Made by a program: the position numbers and the translations under genes. This document shows positions 5,431 to 12,015 of a DNA stretch of 64,000 nucleotides, one piece after another. The stretch comes from an uncultured bacterium. GTDB taxonomy: Bacteria > Bacillota > CAZWXO01. The stretch lies in NCBI GenBank assembly GCA_964637885.1, contig CAZWXO010000003.1:5-64004 (forward strand). Reading direction: 5' to 3'. Numbering within the stretch: position 1 is the stretch's first letter; the number at the start of each line of letters is the position of its first letter. The notes under the pieces were generated by a model. It had not been told where the DNA came from. It searched no databases and worked only from the letters and a program-made list of their open reading frames with translations.

Positions 5431-5733
5431 ATGGAAATTAAAATCAGTGACGCTGCTGCCGAGCGGATTGCACTCAAGGGAAATTCAGTTACTTTGGTGA
5501 TGCTGGCAAAAATGTGTTGAGGGGGCGGTACGTCTTATATTCGGTCCGTGCGACCGGGTGCGCCTTTTCGAAATAAAGAAAGTTATCAGCTTCAGGATGT
5601 AAGCGGTGTCAGCGTATATATTGCGGAGGATTTTAAATGGCCGGATGATGGGGTAATTACCATCAAACTGGCGAATTATTTAATCTTTAAGCTGCTCTAT
5701 GTTTCACCTGAGGCCGTAGGAGTGTACCGTTAG
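5431..5733 (+). CDS. HesB/IscA-like small protein with an in-frame UGA at 5518-5520. It is a candidate selenoprotein of the HesB-like selenoprotein type.
   Basis: ATG 5431 is preceded by GGGAGGTAAAG. MEIKISDAAAERIALKG...LVMLAKMC-[TGA]-GGGTSY aligns across the UGA with IscA MSITLSDSAAARV...GVRTSGCSGMAY, with Sec at the position of the conserved Cys. The frame stays open for 71 more codons to TAG 5731-5733. The track's ORF 5548..5733 is the post-UGA portion of this gene. Confidence 0.5.
5538..5560 (+). promoter_or_regulatory. Candidate bacterial SECIS-like hairpin 17 nt downstream of the in-frame UGA.
   Basis: UAUUCGGUC-CGUGC-GACCGGGUG forms a 9-bp stem including G.U pairs, with a 5-nt loop containing GU. 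Position and size fit a bSECIS. The fold was not verified computationally. Confidence 0.3.
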
Positions 5734-6342: not shown

Positions 6343-6445
6343 TTTGGGTGATAAAAGTAGATTAGCTGGGTTTTTCGTGAATTGCCAAGGTTTGCGTTTA
6401 AATATCGAGGATATAAGTGGTAAAATTATTTCGAACAATCGGGAG

Positions 6446-7492
6446 ATGAGTTTGCAGATGAATTCGGCTTTACCTTCGGGAAAACTACCCGGGAAGGTGC
6501 TTCAAGAGGAAATATTGCAAAAAGTCCGAATGGCCAGTCGTCCGGAGCTGATTGTCGGGCCGGGTCTGGGTCTGGACTGTGCGGTCCTGAAGTGCGGCAG
6601 CGGGTATTGCGTTGCTTCGATGGATCCGATCACCGGGGCGACTGCGCAGGCAGGAACCTTGGCGATTCAGGTGACGGCCAATGATGTCGCCGCCTGCGGT
6701 GTGGAACCGATGGCTATTTTTATGACTATTTTGGTGCCACCTGGAACTACGACCAATCAAATCAGTGAGATAGCCCAGCAGGCGGCGACGGAAGCCCAGC
6801 GCCTGAATTTGGCTATTGCCGGAGGGCATACCGAGGTCACCAGTGCGGTGACTCGTCCTGTTGTTGTGACTACGGGAATCGGTTATACCGAAGAGATTAT
6901 GCCCGGGAGCGCTGCGGTGCGGCCTGGTGATTGTTTGTGCATGACGAAAGCGATCGCTATGGAGGGAACGGCCATCCTGGCTGCTGATTTTGCGCCAAAG
7001 TTGCGGGAATTGGGCATAAGTGAAGCGGTGATTAAGTCTGGGCAGGCTTTGGGCGAACACTTAAGCGTTGTCCGAGAAGGAATATTGGCCCGTAAATTCG
7101 GTGCGATCGCGATGCATGATGCGACTGAGGGAGGGCTTTGGGGTGCTGTCGAGGAAATGTGTGCTGCTGGTGGTTGCGGTGTACGCGTCTGGCAGGAGCG
7201 GGTGCCGCTACGCCTGGAGAGCAGTGTTATTTGCGAGGCACTAGGAGTGGATCCGTATAGTTTGCTTTCCTCGGGGTCGATGTTGGTGGTTGTCCGCCAG
7301 GATGTCGAAGGCTTTCTGGGGCAGATGCGCGAGGCGGAGATTGAGACGACGCACATTGGGGAGTTTCTCCAAGGGGAGAGCCGGGTTATAATAAAAAATG
7401 GCGAGGAATTTCCCTTAACGGGGCCGCCTCGAGATGAGATATATCGAATCCTAGAAATACTTGCAAATGAGGAGGCTGTCGAAAATGCTTGA
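6446..7492 (+). CDS. AIR-synthase-related (PurM/HypE/ThiL-like superfamily) protein.
   Basis: PurM-like N- and C-domains are present (DCAVL...[15 protein letters not shown]). There is no HypE C-terminal PRIC motif and no SelD N-terminal Cys/Sec motif. The start is ATG 6446 or 6458, and the longest ORF begins at 6344. Confidence 0.65.
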
Positions 7493-8862: not shown

Positions 8863-9396
8863 ATGATGGCTGAATATTTAGAGGTGGTTGCTGGCCTATT
8901 CATGGTTTCGAAAATGCAACCTTTCCGCATTACTCCTGGGGTGACTTTTGATTTTTTACCTTTAGGGGACTTGCCGCGCATCGATTCCATCGAGCGGGTC
9001 ATCCACAAATTTCATGCGCTTTCGCCTGGAAAGGTCGGCAAGGTAAAGCGACCGTGGTATTGCCATCATTTTCAGGACGATCATTTGGTAGTCTTGCATG
9101 GCTGCCGGCATGTGGAGTTATTCTCTAAAGAGCATGGCAAAATTGAAAAACTAACAGTTTATTCTGACTGTATCTATCGCAACAATGTCATGTTGCACAC
9201 TGGCGGGGTGATGTTGACATGGCCCCGGGGCGTCTTCCACCGCATTGTTAGCGGAGATGAGGGGTCGGCTTCGATGAATTTTGCCTCACATTACGAAGGC
9301 TATTCTGAAGCGACTAACTATGATATTTATGATGTGGATATAGAGACTGGAGAAAGCCAGATTATCCGCAAAGGTGTTGAAGATCAAGTAATTTAA
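8863..9396 (+). CDS. Hypothetical protein, possibly a cupin-fold (FdtA/WxcM-like) protein.
   Basis: The 177-aa ORF has an RBS GGAGGTGGG. The His-rich stretch WYCHHFQDDHLVVLHG..H resembles cupin metal-binding motifs. The assignment is weak. Confidence 0.35.
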   Translation: MMAEYLEVVAGLFMVSKMQPFRITPGVTFDFLPLGDLPRIDSIERVIHKFHALSPGKVGKVKRPWYCHHFQDDHLVVLHGCRHVELFSKEHGKIEKLTVYSDCIYRNNVMLHTGGVMLTWPRGVFHRIVSGDEGSASMNFASHYEGYSEATNYDIYDVDIETGESQIIRKGVEDQVI

Positions 9397-9654
9397 TTTT
9401 TTAGCAATTGACTTGACATGGGAGCTTCAAAGTAGTAGTATCGTGGCAAGGAAGATGCGTGATACCATGTGTGGGGTCTCAATCAGGCAGCTCGACAGCT
9501 ACGCATCCGGCTGTTGGTTGATATACAGACCTAGCAGTACTGGCGGAAGTCCATGGTTGGATTAGTAGTCTAAGGATCTTTCTTGGTGTTCTCTGGTTGA
9601 TCTTAGGTGGTTTTTAGAAATTTCCAGGGGTTTTTAGGTAGATTGGTTTGGATG

Positions 9655-9709
9655 TCTAAGGTAAATCTAAGGTGAATCTCAGTTAAATCTAAGGTGATTC
9701 TATTCTTGG
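9655..9709. repeat. Five tandem 11-bp iteron-like repeats (TCTAAGGTAAA / TCTAAGGTGAA / TCTCAGTTAAA / TCTAAGGTGAT / TCTATTCTTGG).
   Basis: Read directly from the sequence. The repeats are helically phased at 11 bp, with degeneracy increasing 3'. They sit inside a 517-bp noncoding island (9397-9913) that also carries scattered TAGGT/AAGGA motifs. Confidence 0.7.
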
Positions 9710-9842
9710 TAAACCCACAGGTCCTTCAAGGTTTAAATGGTGCCTCAGGTGGCCGGTTAAGCTAGGATGGTTGGTTTTCCTAATTATTTGGTGGTGGTAG
9801 ATTGGGATCTGGTCAAATTAAGTTAATGAAATGGATGCGTGA

Positions 9843-9899
9843 ATAGTCCGCTGAAAGTGTCACCCGGGTTGGAGCACAGGATCAGCGGACTATTTCATT
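9843..9899 (+). terminator. Long perfect hairpin (12-bp stem ATAGTCCGCTGA / TCAGCGGACTAT, 27-nt loop) followed by a U-rich tail. It is a candidate terminator or processing element.
   Basis: The inverted repeat is read from the sequence. The tail UUUCAUUUGUG is only moderately U-rich. Confidence 0.4.
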
Positions 9900-9912
9900 T
9901 GTGCGGATTTTA

Positions 9913-9941
9913 TTGACATCTTATTCCTAAGCAAGTAGAAT
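9913..9941 (+). promoter_or_regulatory. Near-consensus sigma-A promoter, TTGACA-17-TAGAAT.
   Basis: TTGACA sits at 9913-9918 and TAGAAT at 9936-9941. It drives the small ORF at 9979. Confidence 0.6.
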
Positions 9942-9978
9942 GACCGCAGTGATAGAATCGGAGAGGAGATGATCAGCA

Positions 9979-10203
9979 ATGCTCGAGGAAAAAGGCAAAC
10001 TGCTGGGAAAGTCCCTGAGTGACAGTGATCTTTTATTGGCTGCCGGAGGCACCCAGGGCGGGTATTTGGAAAAAACCGAAGTCTTTTGTAGCAAATGCGG
10101 AACACTTAACATCTTCTGCGAGTACGATCCGCTTCCCGGGGATGAAGTTACTCCTTCGCCAAGGAATTGCTCTAAATGCGGAGCGATAATTTATTATTGC
10201 TAA
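9979..10203 (+). CDS. Small Cys-rich protein of 74 aa. It has a double-glycine-type leader-like N-terminus (LSDSDLLLAAGG) and a C-terminal CxxC-22-CxxC zinc-ribbon-like core.
   Basis: An RBS GGAGAGGAG lies 10 nt upstream, and the promoter above precedes it. LSxxDLxxxxGG matches the class II bacteriocin leader consensus LSxxELxxIxGG. The core contains two CSKCG motifs plus a fifth Cys. Confidence 0.5.
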   Translation: MLEEKGKLLGKSLSDSDLLLAAGGTQGGYLEKTEVFCSKCGTLNIFCEYDPLPGDEVTPSPRNCSKCGAIIYYC

Positions 10204-10329
10204 CGACATTGTAAGCACCAATGTCAGGGGTGCGATGCTAGCTCGTGTAATTGTAAATTATCCTTTACAAGACTTCGAAAACATGATAACATGTGCACAT
10301 TAATTAAATAAGATTTCACCTCGTCTCGG

Positions 10330-10525
10330 AAAGAGATGAGCCAGAGGTCGCGAGAAGTAAGAGTAATATTCGCAAGGGGAGGCACCCGATGAGCGGATAT
10401 GAAAGGACTTTTCGCCGAAGCTGAGGTTTGTGCCTTCAAACCAAGGTTGGGCATGTATCGAATAGATGCATGACTGTCGCTTACACCATTCCCAAAGAGT
10501 GTAAGGGAAGCGCTGCTCATTCAAA
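10330..10525 (+). ncRNA. Lysine riboswitch (L-box) in the lysA leader.
   Basis: Conserved L-box blocks are present: AGAGGTCGCGAGAAGTAAGAGTA, GGGGAGGCACC, CGCCGAAGC, and ATGCATGACTGTCGC near the 3' end. P1 pairs GAGATGAGC with GCTCATTC. Confidence 0.7.
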
Positions 10526-10564
10526 GGGGAGAGAAGAGGAGGACCATCCGTCGACCTTTTATGG

Positions 10565-10609
10565 GGCCGCGAGGAGTTCTCTCTTCGCGGTCTTATTTTT
10601 TTATTTTTT
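10565..10609 (+). terminator. Intrinsic terminator/attenuator of the lysine riboswitch expression platform.
   Basis: The GGCCGCGAGGAG-TTCT-CTCTTCGCGGTC hairpin is followed by TTATTTTTTTATTTTTT. Confidence 0.75.
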
Positions 10610-10641
10610 AATAAAATATTACATAAAAGGGGATGTTAGGA

Positions 10642-12015
10642 ATGCATTTACGCGGAACAATGGAGATCAATGGAGCTGGAAATCTGAGTATCGGTGGCTG
10701 TGATACGGTGATGTTGGCAAAAAAGTATGGCACGCCACTGTATGTAGTTGACGAGCAAGGCATTAGGGAAAACTGTCGGCGACTTAGTTTTGCTCTGGCA
10801 AAACTACAGGTGCCGGCGCGGATTATTTATGCCGGCAAGGCGTTTTTAACCTTGGCGGTTTGCCGTATCATGCAAGAAGAGGGGATGGGGCTGGACCTAG
10901 TCTCTGGAGGCGAGCTCCACACTGCTGTGGCGGCAAAGTTTCCCATGGAAAAGGTATGTTTTCATGGGAACAACAAGAGTTATGAAGAATTGGAGCTGGC
11001 AATCGCTTCGGGAGTTGGTCGAATCGTTGTCGATAACTATTATGAACTTGAAATGCTTGGGCGGATAGCTTCACATGCTGGAGTTATGGCGGATATTTTG
11101 ATTCGTGTCACGCCGGGGGTTTCTGCGCATACCCACGAGTATATTCAGACGGGACAAGAAGATTCCAAGTTCGGGTTCGGGCTGGGGAGCAATCAGGCCC
11201 GAGAAGCGGCGCTTAAGGCATTGTCGATGCCGGCTATCCGTTTACATGGTTTTCATTGTCATATTGGCTCGCAGATATTTAATGAGGAATCCTTTGAGCT
11301 TGCTATCGATATTATGACGGATTTTATTCGCGAGATTCAAATTGAGACCGAATTTGTCACGAGAGAGCTTAATCTGGGTGGAGGCTGGGGTATCCGCTAT
11401 GTTGAGGGGGATAATCCGATGCCTTTGGAAGATTACGTCAGCTTTTTGGCGCAGGCTACTCAGATCAATTGTCAAGAGAAAGGCCTGGAGCAACCGTTGC
11501 TTATCTTCGAACCGGGGCGCGCTTTGGTTGGGGAAATGGGTACGACCTTGTATACTGTCGGGGCGATGAAGGATGTTGTCGGGCATCGGCGGTACCTTTC
11601 CGTGGATGGTGGAATGGGGGACAATCCTCGCTATGCTCTGTATCAGGCGGAGTACGAAGCCGAGCTGGTGACCAAGATTGACCAGCCCCACGATGACAGT
11701 TTTTGTATTGTGGGCAAGTGTTGCGAGTCTGGCGACGTTGTCATTAAAGAAATATCACTGCCATGCGCTGAGGCAGGGGATATCTTAGCTGTTTTTTGTA
11801 CCGGCGCCTATAATTATTCGATGTCCAGCAATTATAACCGCTTACCGCGACCCGCCGCTGTCCTTGTCGAAGGTGGCGAGGCTTCCTTGATTGTTCGGCG
11901 GGAGACCTACGATGATTTGCTGCGGAATGATATTTTACCGGAGCGCTTAGGATTTGTTCATAACCCGGATTTGGCGATTGACTGCGAGGAAGAATTGACT
12001 GAAGTTGCCTTATAA
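10642..12015 (+). CDS. lysA: Diaminopimelate decarboxylase.
   Basis: PLP fold-III decarboxylase motifs are present (NLGGGWGI, IFEPGRALVGEMG, CESGD). An RBS AAAGGGGA lies 8 nt upstream of ATG 10642. The longest ORF starts at 10633. Confidence 0.9.
   Translation: MHLRGTMEINGAGNLSIGGCDTVMLAKKYGTPLYVVDEQGIRENCRRLSFALAKLQVPARIIYAGKAFLTLAVCRIMQEEGMGLDLVSGGELHTAVAAKFPMEKVCFHGNNKSYEELELAIASGVGRIVVDNYYELEMLGRIASHAGVMADILIRVTPGVSAHTHEYIQTGQEDSKFGFGLGSNQAREAALKALSMPAIRLHGFHCHIGSQIFNEESFELAIDIMTDFIREIQIETEFVTRELNLGGGWGIRYVEGDNPMPLEDYVSFLAQATQINCQEKGLEQPLLIFEPGRALVGEMGTTLYTVGAMKDVVGHRRYLSVDGGMGDNPRYALYQAEYEAELVTKIDQPHDDSFCIVGKCCESGDVVIKEISLPCAEAGDILAVFCTGAYNYSMSSNYNRLPRPAAVLVEGGEASLIVRRETYDDLLRNDILPERLGFVHNPDLAIDCEEELTEVAL

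What the first reader, a model, noticed from the sequence alone, without database searches (positions are those of the whole stretch)
9913..10203. Orphan small Cys-rich peptide with a double-glycine-type leader motif and a zinc-ribbon-like core, driven by a textbook promoter
A TTGACA-17-TAGAAT promoter and a strong RBS precede a 74-codon ORF. Residues 12-24 (KSLSDSDLLLAAGG) match the class II bacteriocin / double-glycine leader consensus LSxxELxxIxGG at every key position. The remaining 50 aa contain two CSKCG motifs 22 residues apart plus a fifth Cys, a zinc-ribbon-like arrangement. No C39-peptidase ABC exporter, LanM/LanB or radical SAM gene is adjacent. Either this is a stand-alone zinc-ribbon protein whose N-terminus fortuitously mimics a GG-leader, or it is a RiPP/bacteriocin-like precursor processed by machinery encoded elsewhere. 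The strong promoter argues that it is really expressed.
Basis: partly seen in the sequence, partly recalled or inferred. Interest (0 to 1): 0.55.

Follow-up and report, generated by a model that had tools for sequence, protein, structure and literature searches.

The report
Double-glycine leader fused to zinc ribbon
This is a real, strongly promoted gene for a 74-residue protein from a very rare family that joins an export-type "double-glycine" leader to a small zinc-binding domain, an unusual pairing whose function and processing machinery are still unknown.

Summary
The 74-codon ORF (9979..10203), an 11/12 sigma-70-type promoter (9913..9941) and a GGAGG ribosome-binding site are all present. 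The ORF is under purifying selection (dN/dS about 0.23 against a syntenic ortholog).

Exhaustive searches found only seven proteins of this kind worldwide, all from metagenomes, in a long (72-74 aa) and a short (64-65 aa) form. All seven keep L(-12), S(-11), D/E(-8), L(-7), A(-4), G(-2) and G(-1), and all keep four Cys in two CxxC knuckles. The fifth and sixth Cys of this copy are not conserved.

AlphaFold gives a floppy N-terminus with a helix at -10..-4, a disordered GG hinge, and a confident zinc ribbon. So the leader resemblance is conserved, not fortuitous.

No C39/PCAT transporter, LanM or radical-SAM gene lies in the 64-kb window or beside any homolog. The cores are acidic, and the short form's core is more conserved than its leader. 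This fits a classical bacteriocin or RiPP poorly.

Best reading (about 45%): an orphan PCAT-type cargo that is a small zinc-ribbon peptide. Main rival (about 35%): an uncleaved cytosolic zinc-ribbon protein. It is a new variant of a known kind and of moderate interest.

The parts
9845..9897 (+). Hairpin plus U-tract (AGUCCGCUGA...UCAGCGGACU AUUUCAUUU). It ends the upstream transcript and marks the 5' border of the peptide gene unit.
   Evidence: Read directly. Forms the terminal stem in the fold. Conserved in L006.
9913..9941 (+). Sigma-70 (SigA)-type promoter, TTGACA-17-TAGAAT.
   Evidence: Matches 11/12. Such sites are rare in the window. The same TTGAC-N17-TAGnAT architecture lies upstream of all homologs.
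9960..9968 (+). Ribosome-binding site GGAGAGGAG, 10 nt before the ATG.
   Evidence: Read directly. GGAGATGAT is conserved at all loci.
9979..10203 (+). Coding sequence of the 74-aa protein, including the stop codon.
   Evidence: dN/dS is 0.23 against L006.
9979..10050 (+). Codons 1-24: double-glycine-type leader. L13, S14, D17, L18, A21, G23 and G24 correspond to positions -12, -11, -8, -7, -4, -2 and -1. The putative cleavage site lies after G24.
   Evidence: These columns are invariant in 7/7 homologs, apart from D/E at -8. AlphaFold predicts a helix at residues 15-21 with low pLDDT elsewhere. The consensus is taken from PMC6363468 and PMC6959990.
10051..10065 (+). Codons 25-29: variable, low-confidence linker after the GG. 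It would be the N-terminus of the putative mature peptide.
   Evidence: Most length- and sequence-variable part of the alignment. pLDDT is 55 for residues 21-30.
10066..10200 (+). Codons 30-74: Cys4 zinc-ribbon core.
   Evidence: AlphaFold gives strands at 30-36 and 43-49, with block pLDDT 83-92 at the knuckle and hairpin parts and a dip to 64 in the inter-knuckle loop. Profile matches to the TFIIS/Rpb9 and TFIIB zinc ribbons at E about 0.002-0.003. Sub-threshold match to Pfam Zn_Ribbon_1.
10087..10101 (+). First zinc knuckle, C37-S-K-C40-G41.
   Evidence: C, K, C and G are invariant in the family.
10168..10182 (+). Second zinc knuckle, C64-S-K-C67-G68.
   Evidence: Both Cys are invariant in the family.

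Best explanation
The locus is a monocistronic, strongly promoted gene. It belongs to a very small, lineage-restricted protein family built from three modules:
1. A 24-residue double-glycine-type leader.
2. A short variable linker.
3. A 40-45-residue Cys4 zinc ribbon.

Most likely mechanism (inferred, not shown):
- The leader helix (residues 15-21, positions -10 to -4) docks through L-12, L-7 and A-4 into the groove of a C39 cysteine peptidase domain. That domain would belong to a peptidase-containing ABC transporter, or a stand-alone C39 peptidase plus exporter, encoded elsewhere in the genome.
- The chain is cut after G23-G24.
- The 50-residue product (Thr25-Cys74, about 5.5 kDa apo; 40-41 residues in the short paralogs) is exported.

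The cargo is not a typical cationic pore-forming bacteriocin or a heavily modified RiPP core. It is a small acidic zinc-ribbon domain. In an anoxic habitat it could keep its metal-thiolate site outside the cell. Its extracellular role (signal, metal handling or antagonism) is unknown.

Shown here: the gene is real and constrained; the promoter and ribosome-binding site are conserved; the leader-consensus positions and the four Cys are conserved; and the predicted modular fold is consistent across both forms.

Inferred only: cleavage, export and zinc binding.
For: - The family has only seven members, and all keep L-12, S-11, D/E-8, L-7, A-4, G-2 and G-1. Positions -3, -5, -6 and -9 vary. This mirrors the published recognition rule Leu(-12)-x3-Glu(-8)-Leu(-7)...Gly-Gly, with -4 as the specificity position (PMC6363468; PMC6959990; PMC12184118).
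- The leader is 24 residues with G23 and G24, the same as CtA, the PCAT1 substrate from a clostridial organism.
- Two independent AlphaFold models (long and short form) give a helix at residues 15-21. This equals positions -10..-4, the segment that is helical in the PCAT1-CtA complex. Both models give low confidence around the GG and a confident zinc ribbon after it.
- The stretch just after the GG is the most variable in sequence and length.
- Window and L001a leaders are 22/24 identical at protein level although synonymous sites are saturated (dN/dS 0.03), while their cores differ.
- Genomes appear to carry more than one paralog, and one contig has two in tandem. This is common for GG-leader peptides.
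- A pattern built only from the leader found, in 185,579 species genomes, one other locus. It is a tandem set of GG-leader peptides next to an ABC exporter in Oscillibacter, with the same A at -4 (ALSDEELDNASGG).
- PCAT cargo can be small proteins with non-bacteriocin roles (CtA, MAM).
- The PCAT1 cavity is about 15,000 cubic angstroms and does not bind cargo specifically. A 5.5-kDa cargo would fit; this last step is inference.
Against: - No C39/PCAT gene lies in the 64-kb window, in its extension on the JGI contig, or within +/-10 kb of any homolog.
- The two ABC exporters beside the short paralog P0013 have no C39 domain.
- No curated GG-leader or bacteriocin profile in Pfam or NCBIfam matches the protein or its leader. 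A leader profile does not find CtA or LahA leaders in the PDB.
- Position -4 is Ala rather than Val/Ile/Leu/Met.
- The core resembles ordinary cytosolic zinc ribbons of the TFIIB/TFIIS type. I know of no exported zinc ribbon.
- In the short form the core is more conserved than the leader (dN 0.08-0.11 against 0.25-0.35). P0013 is 100% identical between organisms whose flanking proteins are 89-94% identical. This pattern is more usual for a housekeeping partner protein than for a secreted antagonist.
- PCAT1 cargo was seen unstructured in the cavity. A pre-folded, metal-loaded domain may be a poor substrate.
Confidence: 0.45

Rival explanations
1. An uncleaved, cytosolic small zinc-ribbon protein. 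The conserved N-terminal LSxxDLxxAAGG helix would be a short docking motif for an intracellular partner, for example part of the transcription, translation or proteolysis machinery. The zinc ribbon would bind nucleic acid or protein. On this reading the likeness to a GG leader is convergent.
For: - The core is a canonical zinc ribbon. Its best, weak, profile matches are to TFIIS/Rpb9 and TFIIB ribbons and to ribosomal S27e-type folds.
- No exporter or peptidase lies near any family member.
- The promoter looks strong and constitutive, and the gene sits among housekeeping genes.
- The short paralog is extremely conserved: 100% protein and 99% nucleotide identity, against 82-90% nucleotide identity in flanking genes.
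- The proteins are acidic and not amphipathic.
- No curated bacteriocin or leader profile matches.
Against: - The conserved positions coincide one for one with the C39 recognition rule, and the variable ones with its 'x' positions.
- The N-terminal 29 residues do not pack on the domain in either model, and the GG region is the least confident part.
- The family is absent from 185,579 species genomes and numbers seven proteins in 5.8 billion clusters. That is odd for a partner of conserved core machinery.
- Several divergent paralogs per genome, including a tandem pair, are unusual for such a factor.
Confidence: 0.35
2. A true RiPP precursor. After leader-guided recognition, the Cys residues would be modified (thioether, sactionine or ranthionine links, or similar) by a radical-SAM or other maturase encoded elsewhere. 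The peptide would then be cleaved at the GG and exported.
For: - It has a GG-type leader followed by a Cys-rich core.
- This copy and its ortholog carry two extra Cys, C47 and C74.
- Cys-rich GG peptides with radical-SAM maturases are common in Clostridia (own knowledge: SCIFF and ranthipeptides).
Against: - No maturase gene lies beside any of six distinct contexts, whereas RiPP precursors are almost always clustered with their enzymes.
- There is no significant hit to SCIFF or any other Cys-rich RiPP precursor model in NCBIfam; the only RiPP-type Cys-rich model listed, TIGR04165, reaches E = 1.6 (9.1 bits against a cut-off of 60).
- The four conserved Cys lie in CxKCG / CxxC[GN] knuckles on predicted beta-hairpins, as in metal-binding ribbons.
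- The short form's core is more conserved than its leader, opposite to the usual RiPP pattern.
Confidence: 0.1
3. An unmodified class II bacteriocin that kills competitors, secreted through a remote PCAT, with two (or three) disulfides instead of zinc.
For: It has a GG leader and small size, there are multiple paralogs including a tandem pair, and the long form evolves faster than most neighbouring genes (76% identity against 81-97%).
Against: - The predicted mature peptides have net charge -2 in five of seven members and +1 in two, and no amphipathic or hydrophobic segment.
- No immunity, accessory or transporter gene is adjacent anywhere.
- The short form is invariant between species, which is not the diversifying pattern of antagonistic peptides.
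- CxxC pairs are poorly suited to intramolecular disulfide staples of the known bacteriocin types (own knowledge).
Confidence: 0.07
4. A chance ORF behind a chance promoter that is not a gene.
For: It has no Pfam or NCBIfam assignment above threshold and it is very short.
Against: - dN/dS is 0.2-0.3 with saturated synonymous change between homologs.
- Seven homologs share the same start, frame, promoter and ribosome-binding site.
- The fold prediction is confident.
Confidence: 0.02

Closest known systems
CtA, the 90-residue substrate of the peptidase-containing ABC transporter PCAT1 of Clostridium (Acetivibrio) thermocellum (PMC6959990)
   Same: - A small protein from a Firmicute with a 24-residue leader ending in G23-G24.
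- A leader helix at positions -10..-4, with hydrophobic residues at -12 and -7.
- Cargo of a few kDa with no known bacteriocin activity.
   Different: - CtA is encoded next to its transporter, whereas this family never is in the contexts seen.
- No sequence similarity was detectable.
- CtA cargo was described as unstructured, while this cargo is a predicted zinc ribbon.
- Position -4 is Met in CtA and Ala here.
Class II bacteriocin and competence-pheromone precursors with double-glycine leaders (ComC/ComA and similar; consensus LSxxELxxIxGG)
   Same: The consensus positions L-12, S-11, acidic -8, L-7, G-2 and G-1 are all present and conserved. The leader length falls in the usual 15-30 residue range.
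   Different: - Position -4 is Ala.
- The mature part is acidic and lacks an amphipathic helix or a YGNGV-type motif.
- No immunity gene, transporter or two-component genes are adjacent.
- No curated profile matches.
MAM of Faecalibacterium (PMC12184118)
   Same: It is a precedent in Clostridia for a very highly expressed small protein with a GG leader, proposed to be cut and exported by a PCAT for a non-antibiotic role.
   Different: MAM is 135 aa and helical, is encoded beside its PCAT, and is not Cys-rich. There is no sequence relationship.
Canonical Cys4 zinc ribbons (TFIIB N-terminal ribbon 1PFT, TFIIS/Rpb9 C-terminal ribbon 1QYP, ribosomal protein S27e; Pfam Zn_Ribbon_1 PF13240)
   Same: Two CxxC knuckles on beta-hairpins. 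The sequence context around the first knuckle (E-[IV]-x-C-x-K-C-G) is like TFIIB/TFIIS. The predicted fold is a zinc ribbon.
   Different: - The matches are weak: E about 0.002-0.003 against the PDB, and Pfam 21.4 bits against a cut-off of 25.
- Those proteins are cytosolic parts of transcription or translation machinery.
- None carries a GG-type leader.
SCIFF and ranthipeptide-type Cys-rich precursors of Clostridia
   Same: Small Cys-rich peptides of anaerobic Firmicutes with a Gly-Gly before the Cys-rich part.
   Different: Those are always adjacent to a radical-SAM/SPASM maturase and have different Cys spacing. No significant NCBIfam match to such a precursor model (best, TIGR04165, E = 1.6, far below its cut-off) and no adjacent maturase were found.

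Membership tests
Double-glycine leader peptides (substrates of C39 peptidase / PCAT exporters) | An N-terminal extension of about 15-30 residues ending in Gly-Gly (or Gly-Ala, Gly-Ser). | tested here: met
   G23-G24 follow a 24-residue N-terminus and are invariant in 7/7 homologs.
Double-glycine leader peptides (substrates of C39 peptidase / PCAT exporters) | The recognition pattern Leu/Ile/Val(-12)-x3-Glu/Asp(-8)-Leu(-7). | tested here: met
   L13, D/E17 and L18 are conserved in 7/7 homologs while the x positions vary. The rule is as stated in PMC6363468 and PMC6959990.
Double-glycine leader peptides (substrates of C39 peptidase / PCAT exporters) | A hydrophobic residue at -4 (Val/Ile/Leu/Met), the specificity position. 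| tested here: inconclusive
   Ala is invariant at -4. It is small but apolar. The same Ala(-4) occurs in the Oscillibacter GG peptides that sit next to an ABC exporter.
Double-glycine leader peptides (substrates of C39 peptidase / PCAT exporters) | The leader forms a short helix over -10..-4 and is otherwise flexible and separate from the cargo. | tested here: met
   AlphaFold predicts a helix at residues 15-21 in both the long and short form. pLDDT is below 65 for residues 1-29, and below 50 at residues 23-26 in the short form. This is a prediction only.
Double-glycine leader peptides (substrates of C39 peptidase / PCAT exporters) | A cognate C39 peptidase-containing ABC transporter encoded next to the peptide. 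| tested here: not met
   None is present in the 64-kb window or in +/-10 kb of L001, L006, L007, L008 or L010. The neighbouring ABC exporters in L007 and L008 lack a C39 domain.
Double-glycine leader peptides (substrates of C39 peptidase / PCAT exporters) | A C39 peptidase somewhere in the same genome. | not testable with these tools
   Only about 100 kb of the host genome could be reached. The host is not among the GTDB species representatives searched.
Double-glycine leader peptides (substrates of C39 peptidase / PCAT exporters) | Demonstrated cleavage after the GG, and export. | not testable with these tools
   This needs biochemistry or proteomics.
Curated bacteriocin / GG-leader precursor families (Pfam, NCBIfam) | A score above the curated cut-off of any such profile. 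| tested here: not met
   No hit for the whole protein or for the leaders alone. The best is E = 0.22 to NF046113, for one homolog only.
Zinc ribbon (Cys4) | Two CxxC knuckles separated by a beta-hairpin-forming spacer, with the Cys conserved. | tested here: met
   C37, C40, C64 and C67 are invariant in 7/7 homologs, and K39 and G41 are also invariant.
Zinc ribbon (Cys4) | A zinc-ribbon fold. | tested here: met
   AlphaFold gives beta-hairpins with pLDDT 83-92 and about 89-90. Foldseek and profile hits are all zinc ribbons, though individually weak.
Zinc ribbon (Cys4) | A score above the gathering threshold of a Pfam zinc-ribbon model. | tested here: not met
   PF13240 scores 21.4 bits against a cut-off of 25. 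Five of seven members match it at E of 0.01 or better.
Zinc ribbon (Cys4) | Stoichiometric zinc binding. | not testable with these tools
   This needs metal analysis of purified protein.
RiPP precursors (lanthipeptide, sactipeptide, ranthipeptide/SCIFF) | A modifying enzyme (LanM/LanB/LanC, radical-SAM/SPASM, YcaO) in the same gene cluster. | tested here: not met
   None is in the precomputed Pfam annotation of any context. There is no CxxxCxxC motif in any ORF of 150 aa or more in any locus.
RiPP precursors (lanthipeptide, sactipeptide, ranthipeptide/SCIFF) | A leader more conserved than the core among homologs. | tested here: inconclusive
   This holds between the long and short forms, where leaders are nearly identical and cores differ. 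The opposite holds within the short form (core dN 0.08-0.11, leader dN 0.25-0.35).
Class II (unmodified) bacteriocins | A cationic, amphiphilic or hydrophobic mature peptide with an adjacent immunity gene. | tested here: not met
   Core net charge is -2 in five of seven members and +1 in two. No small hydrophobic immunity-like gene or transporter is adjacent.

The most novel reading that the evidence does not exclude
The family could be the first example of a zinc ribbon used as extracellular cargo. On this reading a ribosomally made, metal-thiolate peptide is released through the double-glycine/C39 route by anaerobic Firmicutes. It would serve as a secreted metal-binding agent (zinc or another thiophilic metal scavenger or buffer in sulfidic habitats) or as a folded peptide signal. 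One short paralog lies immediately downstream of a metal-uptake ABC operon with its Fur-family regulator. That is the only contextual hint, and it is anecdotal.
Probability: 0.12. Interest if true: 0.8.

Novelty: new variant of a known kind. Interest (0 to 1): 0.5.

Why it matters
Double-glycine leaders are known as export and processing tags for bacteriocins, pheromones, RiPPs and a few small proteins. Zinc ribbons are known as intracellular domains that bind nucleic acids or proteins. A conserved fusion of the two, expressed from a strong promoter and never clustered with a transporter or maturase, belongs to neither catalogue.

If the leader is functional, the range of PCAT cargo would extend to a folded metal-binding domain, and this would point to an unrecognised class of secreted metallopeptides in anaerobes. 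If the leader is not cleaved, it would show that the C39 recognition pattern can arise and be maintained for another purpose. That matters for genome-mining pipelines that call GG-leader peptides from motif alone.

Either way, the family is absent from Pfam and NCBIfam and is annotated only as hypothetical.

Tried and rejected
- **Curated profiles.** Pfam and NCBIfam scans of the whole protein and of the leaders alone gave nothing above threshold.
- **Homolog searches.** Three word-index searches and one exhaustive phmmer search saturate at seven proteins. The other phmmer hits (P0005-P0007, P0009-P0011) are low-complexity repeat proteins, not relatives. P0014 is a leaderless phage-like zinc ribbon at E = 0.18 and was not counted.
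- **Collection scans.**
  - The search for related loci with the alignment failed because there was no stretch conserved enough.
  - A degenerate leader pattern found only an unrelated Oscillibacter GG-peptide cluster in 185,579 species genomes.
  - Two patterns found nothing in metagenome contigs, and one found nothing in viral contigs.
- **ABC exporters beside P0013.** One of them is 721 aa, the size of a PCAT, so I checked for a C39 domain. It has none, only an 83-residue N-terminal extension.
- **Zinc-regulation idea.** The Fur-family regulator upstream of P0012 cannot be assigned to Zur, since all NCBIfam matches are below cut-off. No palindromic operator was evident in the promoters (by eye). 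This was kept only as an anecdote.
- **Terminator.** No intrinsic terminator was found downstream of the window gene, although the other loci have clear ones.
- **Host and sample.** Looking for the taxonomy or sample description through cluster names and the literature led nowhere.
- **Extending past the window.** Two attempts to extend the context past the right end of the window failed because the start-codon calls differ.
- **Literature.** Searches for an exported or GG-leader zinc ribbon found no precedent.
Full report
**1. What is in the sequence**

The plus strand carries a 74-codon ORF at 9979..10203. It encodes MLEEKGKLLGKSLSDSDLLLAAGGTQGGYLEKTEVFCSKCGTLNIFCEYDPLPGDEVTPSPRNCSKCGAIIYYC.

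- A TTGACA-17-TAGAAT site lies at 9913..9941 and matches 11 of 12 consensus positions.
- Only three sites this good exist in the whole window on both strands, against 0.68 +/- 0.76 in Markov simulations. This is the only one placed in an intergenic gap in front of an ORF.
- GGAGAGGAG lies 10 nt before the ATG.
- A strong hairpin plus U-tract at 9845..9897 closes the upstream transcript.
- Downstream there is no convincing intrinsic terminator.
- The next features are a weaker promoter-like site at 10264..10292 and a lysine riboswitch at 10334..10523 (106 bits), in front of lysA at 10633..12015.

The motif spans residues 11-24, not 12-24. Position -4 is Ala. The protein has six cysteines, not five.

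**2. It is a real gene**

A syntenic ortholog (P0003, 76% identical) sits at the same place, between the serS/177-aa ORF pair and the lysine riboswitch and lysA, on a 244-kb JGI contig.

- Between the two copies dN/dS is 0.23, with dS 0.55.
- Flanking proteins are 81-97% identical, and one (UDG) is 71%. The small protein therefore evolves somewhat faster than most neighbours, but clearly under constraint.

**3. The family**

Two word-index searches of 5.8 billion protein clusters, a third with a 7-sequence profile, and one exhaustive phmmer scan of 1.84 billion representatives all converge on seven proteins.

- Long form, 72-74 aa: P0001 (this gene), P0003, P0004.
- Short form, 64-65 aa: P0002, P0012, P0013, P0008.
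- All are from metagenome assemblies and are unnamed or 'hypothetical'.
- A degenerate DNA pattern for the leader found no member among 185,579 species-representative genomes.
- Nothing was found in the metagenome or viral contig collections available here.
- Two JGI samples each hold one long-form and one short-form gene.
- One 2.3-kb contig carries a short and a long form 400 bp apart.

Genomes therefore probably hold two or more paralogs.

**4. Conservation pattern**

The first 24 columns align without gaps.

- Invariant in the leader: M1, K5, L13, S14, L18, A21, G23, G24. Position 15 is always D/E, position 17 is always D/E, and position 22 is A/S.
- Counted back from the GG, the conserved set is L-12, S-11, acidic -10 and -8, L-7, A-4, G-2, G-1. 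Positions -3, -5, -6 and -9 vary.
- This matches the published recognition rule for C39 peptidase domains: Leu(-12)-x3-Glu(-8)-Leu(-7) before Gly-Gly (PMC6363468). Positions -12 and -7 form the 'hydrophobic knot', and -4 acts as the specificity position (PMC6959990; PMC12184118).
- Leader length (24, with G23 and G24) equals that of CtA, the PCAT1 substrate.
- The segment just after the GG is the most variable in sequence and length.
- In the core, only C37, K39, C40, G41, C64 and C67 are invariant. C47 and C74 occur only in this protein and its ortholog.
- The loose consensus occurs 4 times in 128,000 six-frame positions of the window. It falls at the right distance from a start codon in only 1 of 436 ORFs, this one.
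- A stricter version hit only family members and the Oscillibacter peptides across all loci fetched.

**5. Predicted structure**

AlphaFold2 was run on the 7-sequence alignment, once with the long form first and once with the short form first. Both runs gave the same picture:

- an N-terminus of low confidence, with a single helix at residues 15-21;
- a disordered GG region, with pLDDT below 50 at residues 23-26 in the short form;
- a beta-hairpin zinc ribbon with pLDDT 83-92.

Residues 15-21 are positions -10 to -4, the segment seen as a helix in the PCAT1-CtA complex.

The family profile finds the TFIIS/Rpb9 ribbon (1QYP, E = 0.002) and the TFIIB ribbon (1PFT, E = 0.003) in the PDB. Foldseek returns only zinc ribbons, none significant. 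Pfam Zn_Ribbon_1 is matched below threshold by five of seven members. The core is therefore an ordinary-looking Cys4 zinc ribbon.

**6. Genomic context**

The window is housekeeping DNA of a flagellated Firmicute-like organism with 48% G+C. The taxon assignment is my inference from gene order.

- Genes present include pepF, udg, serS, lysA, hutP, aroH-type chorismate mutase, cmk, a branched-chain amino-acid ABC importer, the glycine cleavage system, comM, dprA, topA, trmFO, xerC, hslVU and codY, followed by the flagellar operon.
- There is no C39 peptidase, LanM/LanB, YcaO or radical-SAM gene.

The contexts of the paralogs all differ:

- P0013 lies upstream of MarR plus two ABC half-transporters that have no C39 domain.
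- P0012 lies 100 bp downstream of a metal-uptake ABC operon (ZnuA-family binding protein, ATPase, permease) and its Fur-family regulator. That regulator cannot be assigned to Zur.
- P0008 lies upstream of a flavodoxin-like gene.
- P0002 and P0004 lie after an amidohydrolase-like gene.

Every copy has its own TTGAC-N17-TAGnAT promoter and GGAGATGAT ribosome-binding site. Most have a clear terminator. The genes are therefore autonomous, probably highly expressed units with no conserved neighbour.

**7. Points that argue against a classical bacteriocin or RiPP**

- Predicted mature peptides have net charge -2 in five members and +1 in two. They have no hydrophobic or amphipathic segment.
- Within the short form, the core is more conserved than the leader (dN 0.08-0.11 against 0.25-0.35).
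- P0013 is 100% identical in protein and 99% in DNA between two organisms whose adjacent genes are 82-90% identical in DNA.
- No curated leader, bacteriocin, SCIFF or Cys-rich RiPP profile matches significantly.

**8. Interpretation**

The comparative data remove the 'fortuitous mimic' option, because the leader-like motif is the most tightly conserved part of the N-terminus. They also show that the Cys4 ribbon is the functional core.

Two readings remain.

- **Preferred, about 0.45.** The N-terminus is a true double-glycine leader. It is read by a C39 peptidase or PCAT encoded elsewhere, and the zinc-ribbon peptide (Thr25-Cys74, about 5.5 kDa) is exported. Orphan GG peptides served by a distant transporter are known (own knowledge). 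PCAT cargo need not be a bacteriocin (CtA, MAM). The PCAT1 cavity is cargo-unspecific and large enough for 5-6 kDa (plus inference).
- **Main rival, about 0.35.** The protein stays intact in the cytosol, and the motif is a docking helix for another partner. In favour are the ordinary zinc-ribbon core, the total lack of linked export genes, and the extreme conservation of the short form.
- **Less likely.** A remote-maturase RiPP (about 0.1) and an unmodified bacteriocin (about 0.07).

Cleavage, export and metal binding are all inferred. None is shown.

**9. Novelty and score**

I found no precedent in Pfam, NCBIfam, the PDB or the searchable literature for a GG-type leader fused to a zinc ribbon.

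I rate it a new variant of a known kind: a GG-leader peptide with an unprecedented cargo and an orphan genomic habit. Interest is about 0.5. The architecture is truly unusual and the family is undescribed. However, it is tiny, comes from uncultured organisms, and its mechanism cannot be settled without a whole-genome C39 search and biochemistry.

Noticed in passing
window 9397..9900 (+): A stretch of about 450-500 nt lies between the 177-aa ORF and the peptide promoter. It has its own promoter-like site (TTGACA-17-TAGTAT, 9413..9441) and a strong terminal hairpin plus U-tract (9845..9897). It is 91% identical in DNA to the syntenic stretch of L006. It contains 11-nt tandem units UCUAAGGURAA (9655..9695) and many GGU-rich motifs. 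No Rfam family matches, and the fold z-score is -2.0. It is a candidate undescribed non-coding RNA or a long leader.
   Followed up: partly
window 10204..10633 (+): A lysine riboswitch (10334..10523, 106 bits) lies in front of lysA. No intrinsic terminator lies between the strongly promoted peptide gene and the riboswitch. Read-through transcripts from the peptide promoter may therefore enter the riboswitch-controlled lysA leader.
   Followed up: partly
L007 10001..10198 and L008 206..403: The short paralog P0013 is 99% identical in DNA (2 synonymous changes in 198 nt) between two organisms whose flanking genes are 82-90% identical and whose flanking non-coding DNA is 75-88% identical. Possible causes are very strong constraint (including on synonymous sites), very high expression, or recent exchange.
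   Followed up: partly
L010 2746..6025 (also L011): The short paralog P0012 sits about 100 bp downstream of a metal-uptake operon (ZnuA-family binding protein, ABC ATPase, ABC-3 permease, Fur-family regulator). This is the only contextual hint of a link to metal homeostasis. The regulator could not be assigned to Zur.
   Followed up: partly
L012 1..2700 (Oscillibacter MAG JALCRR010000001.1): An unrelated cluster holds three tandem GG-leader peptides (MKENKRFPQGNALSDEELDNASGG followed by a Pro-rich core). They lie directly after an ABC exporter whose N-terminus is cut off by the locus edge, and before a Cys-rich (SPASM-like?) ORF. It looks like a RiPP or bacteriocin cluster and shares Ala at -4 with the family studied here.
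   Followed up: no
L001 1208..2037: A short-form gene (P0002) and a long-form gene (P0004) lie in tandem about 400 bp apart. Each has its own promoter, and their leaders differ.
   Followed up: yes
window 8863..9396 (+): A 177-aa ORF directly after serS has no Pfam or NCBIfam match, yet it is 89% identical to its L006 ortholog. It is a conserved protein of unknown family.
   Followed up: partly
window 5548..5733 (+): A 61-aa ORF is syntenic with an L006 gene that carries PF28096 (CC_Se_fam). It lies next to an AIRS-domain gene (6344..7492) and was not examined further.
   Followed up: no
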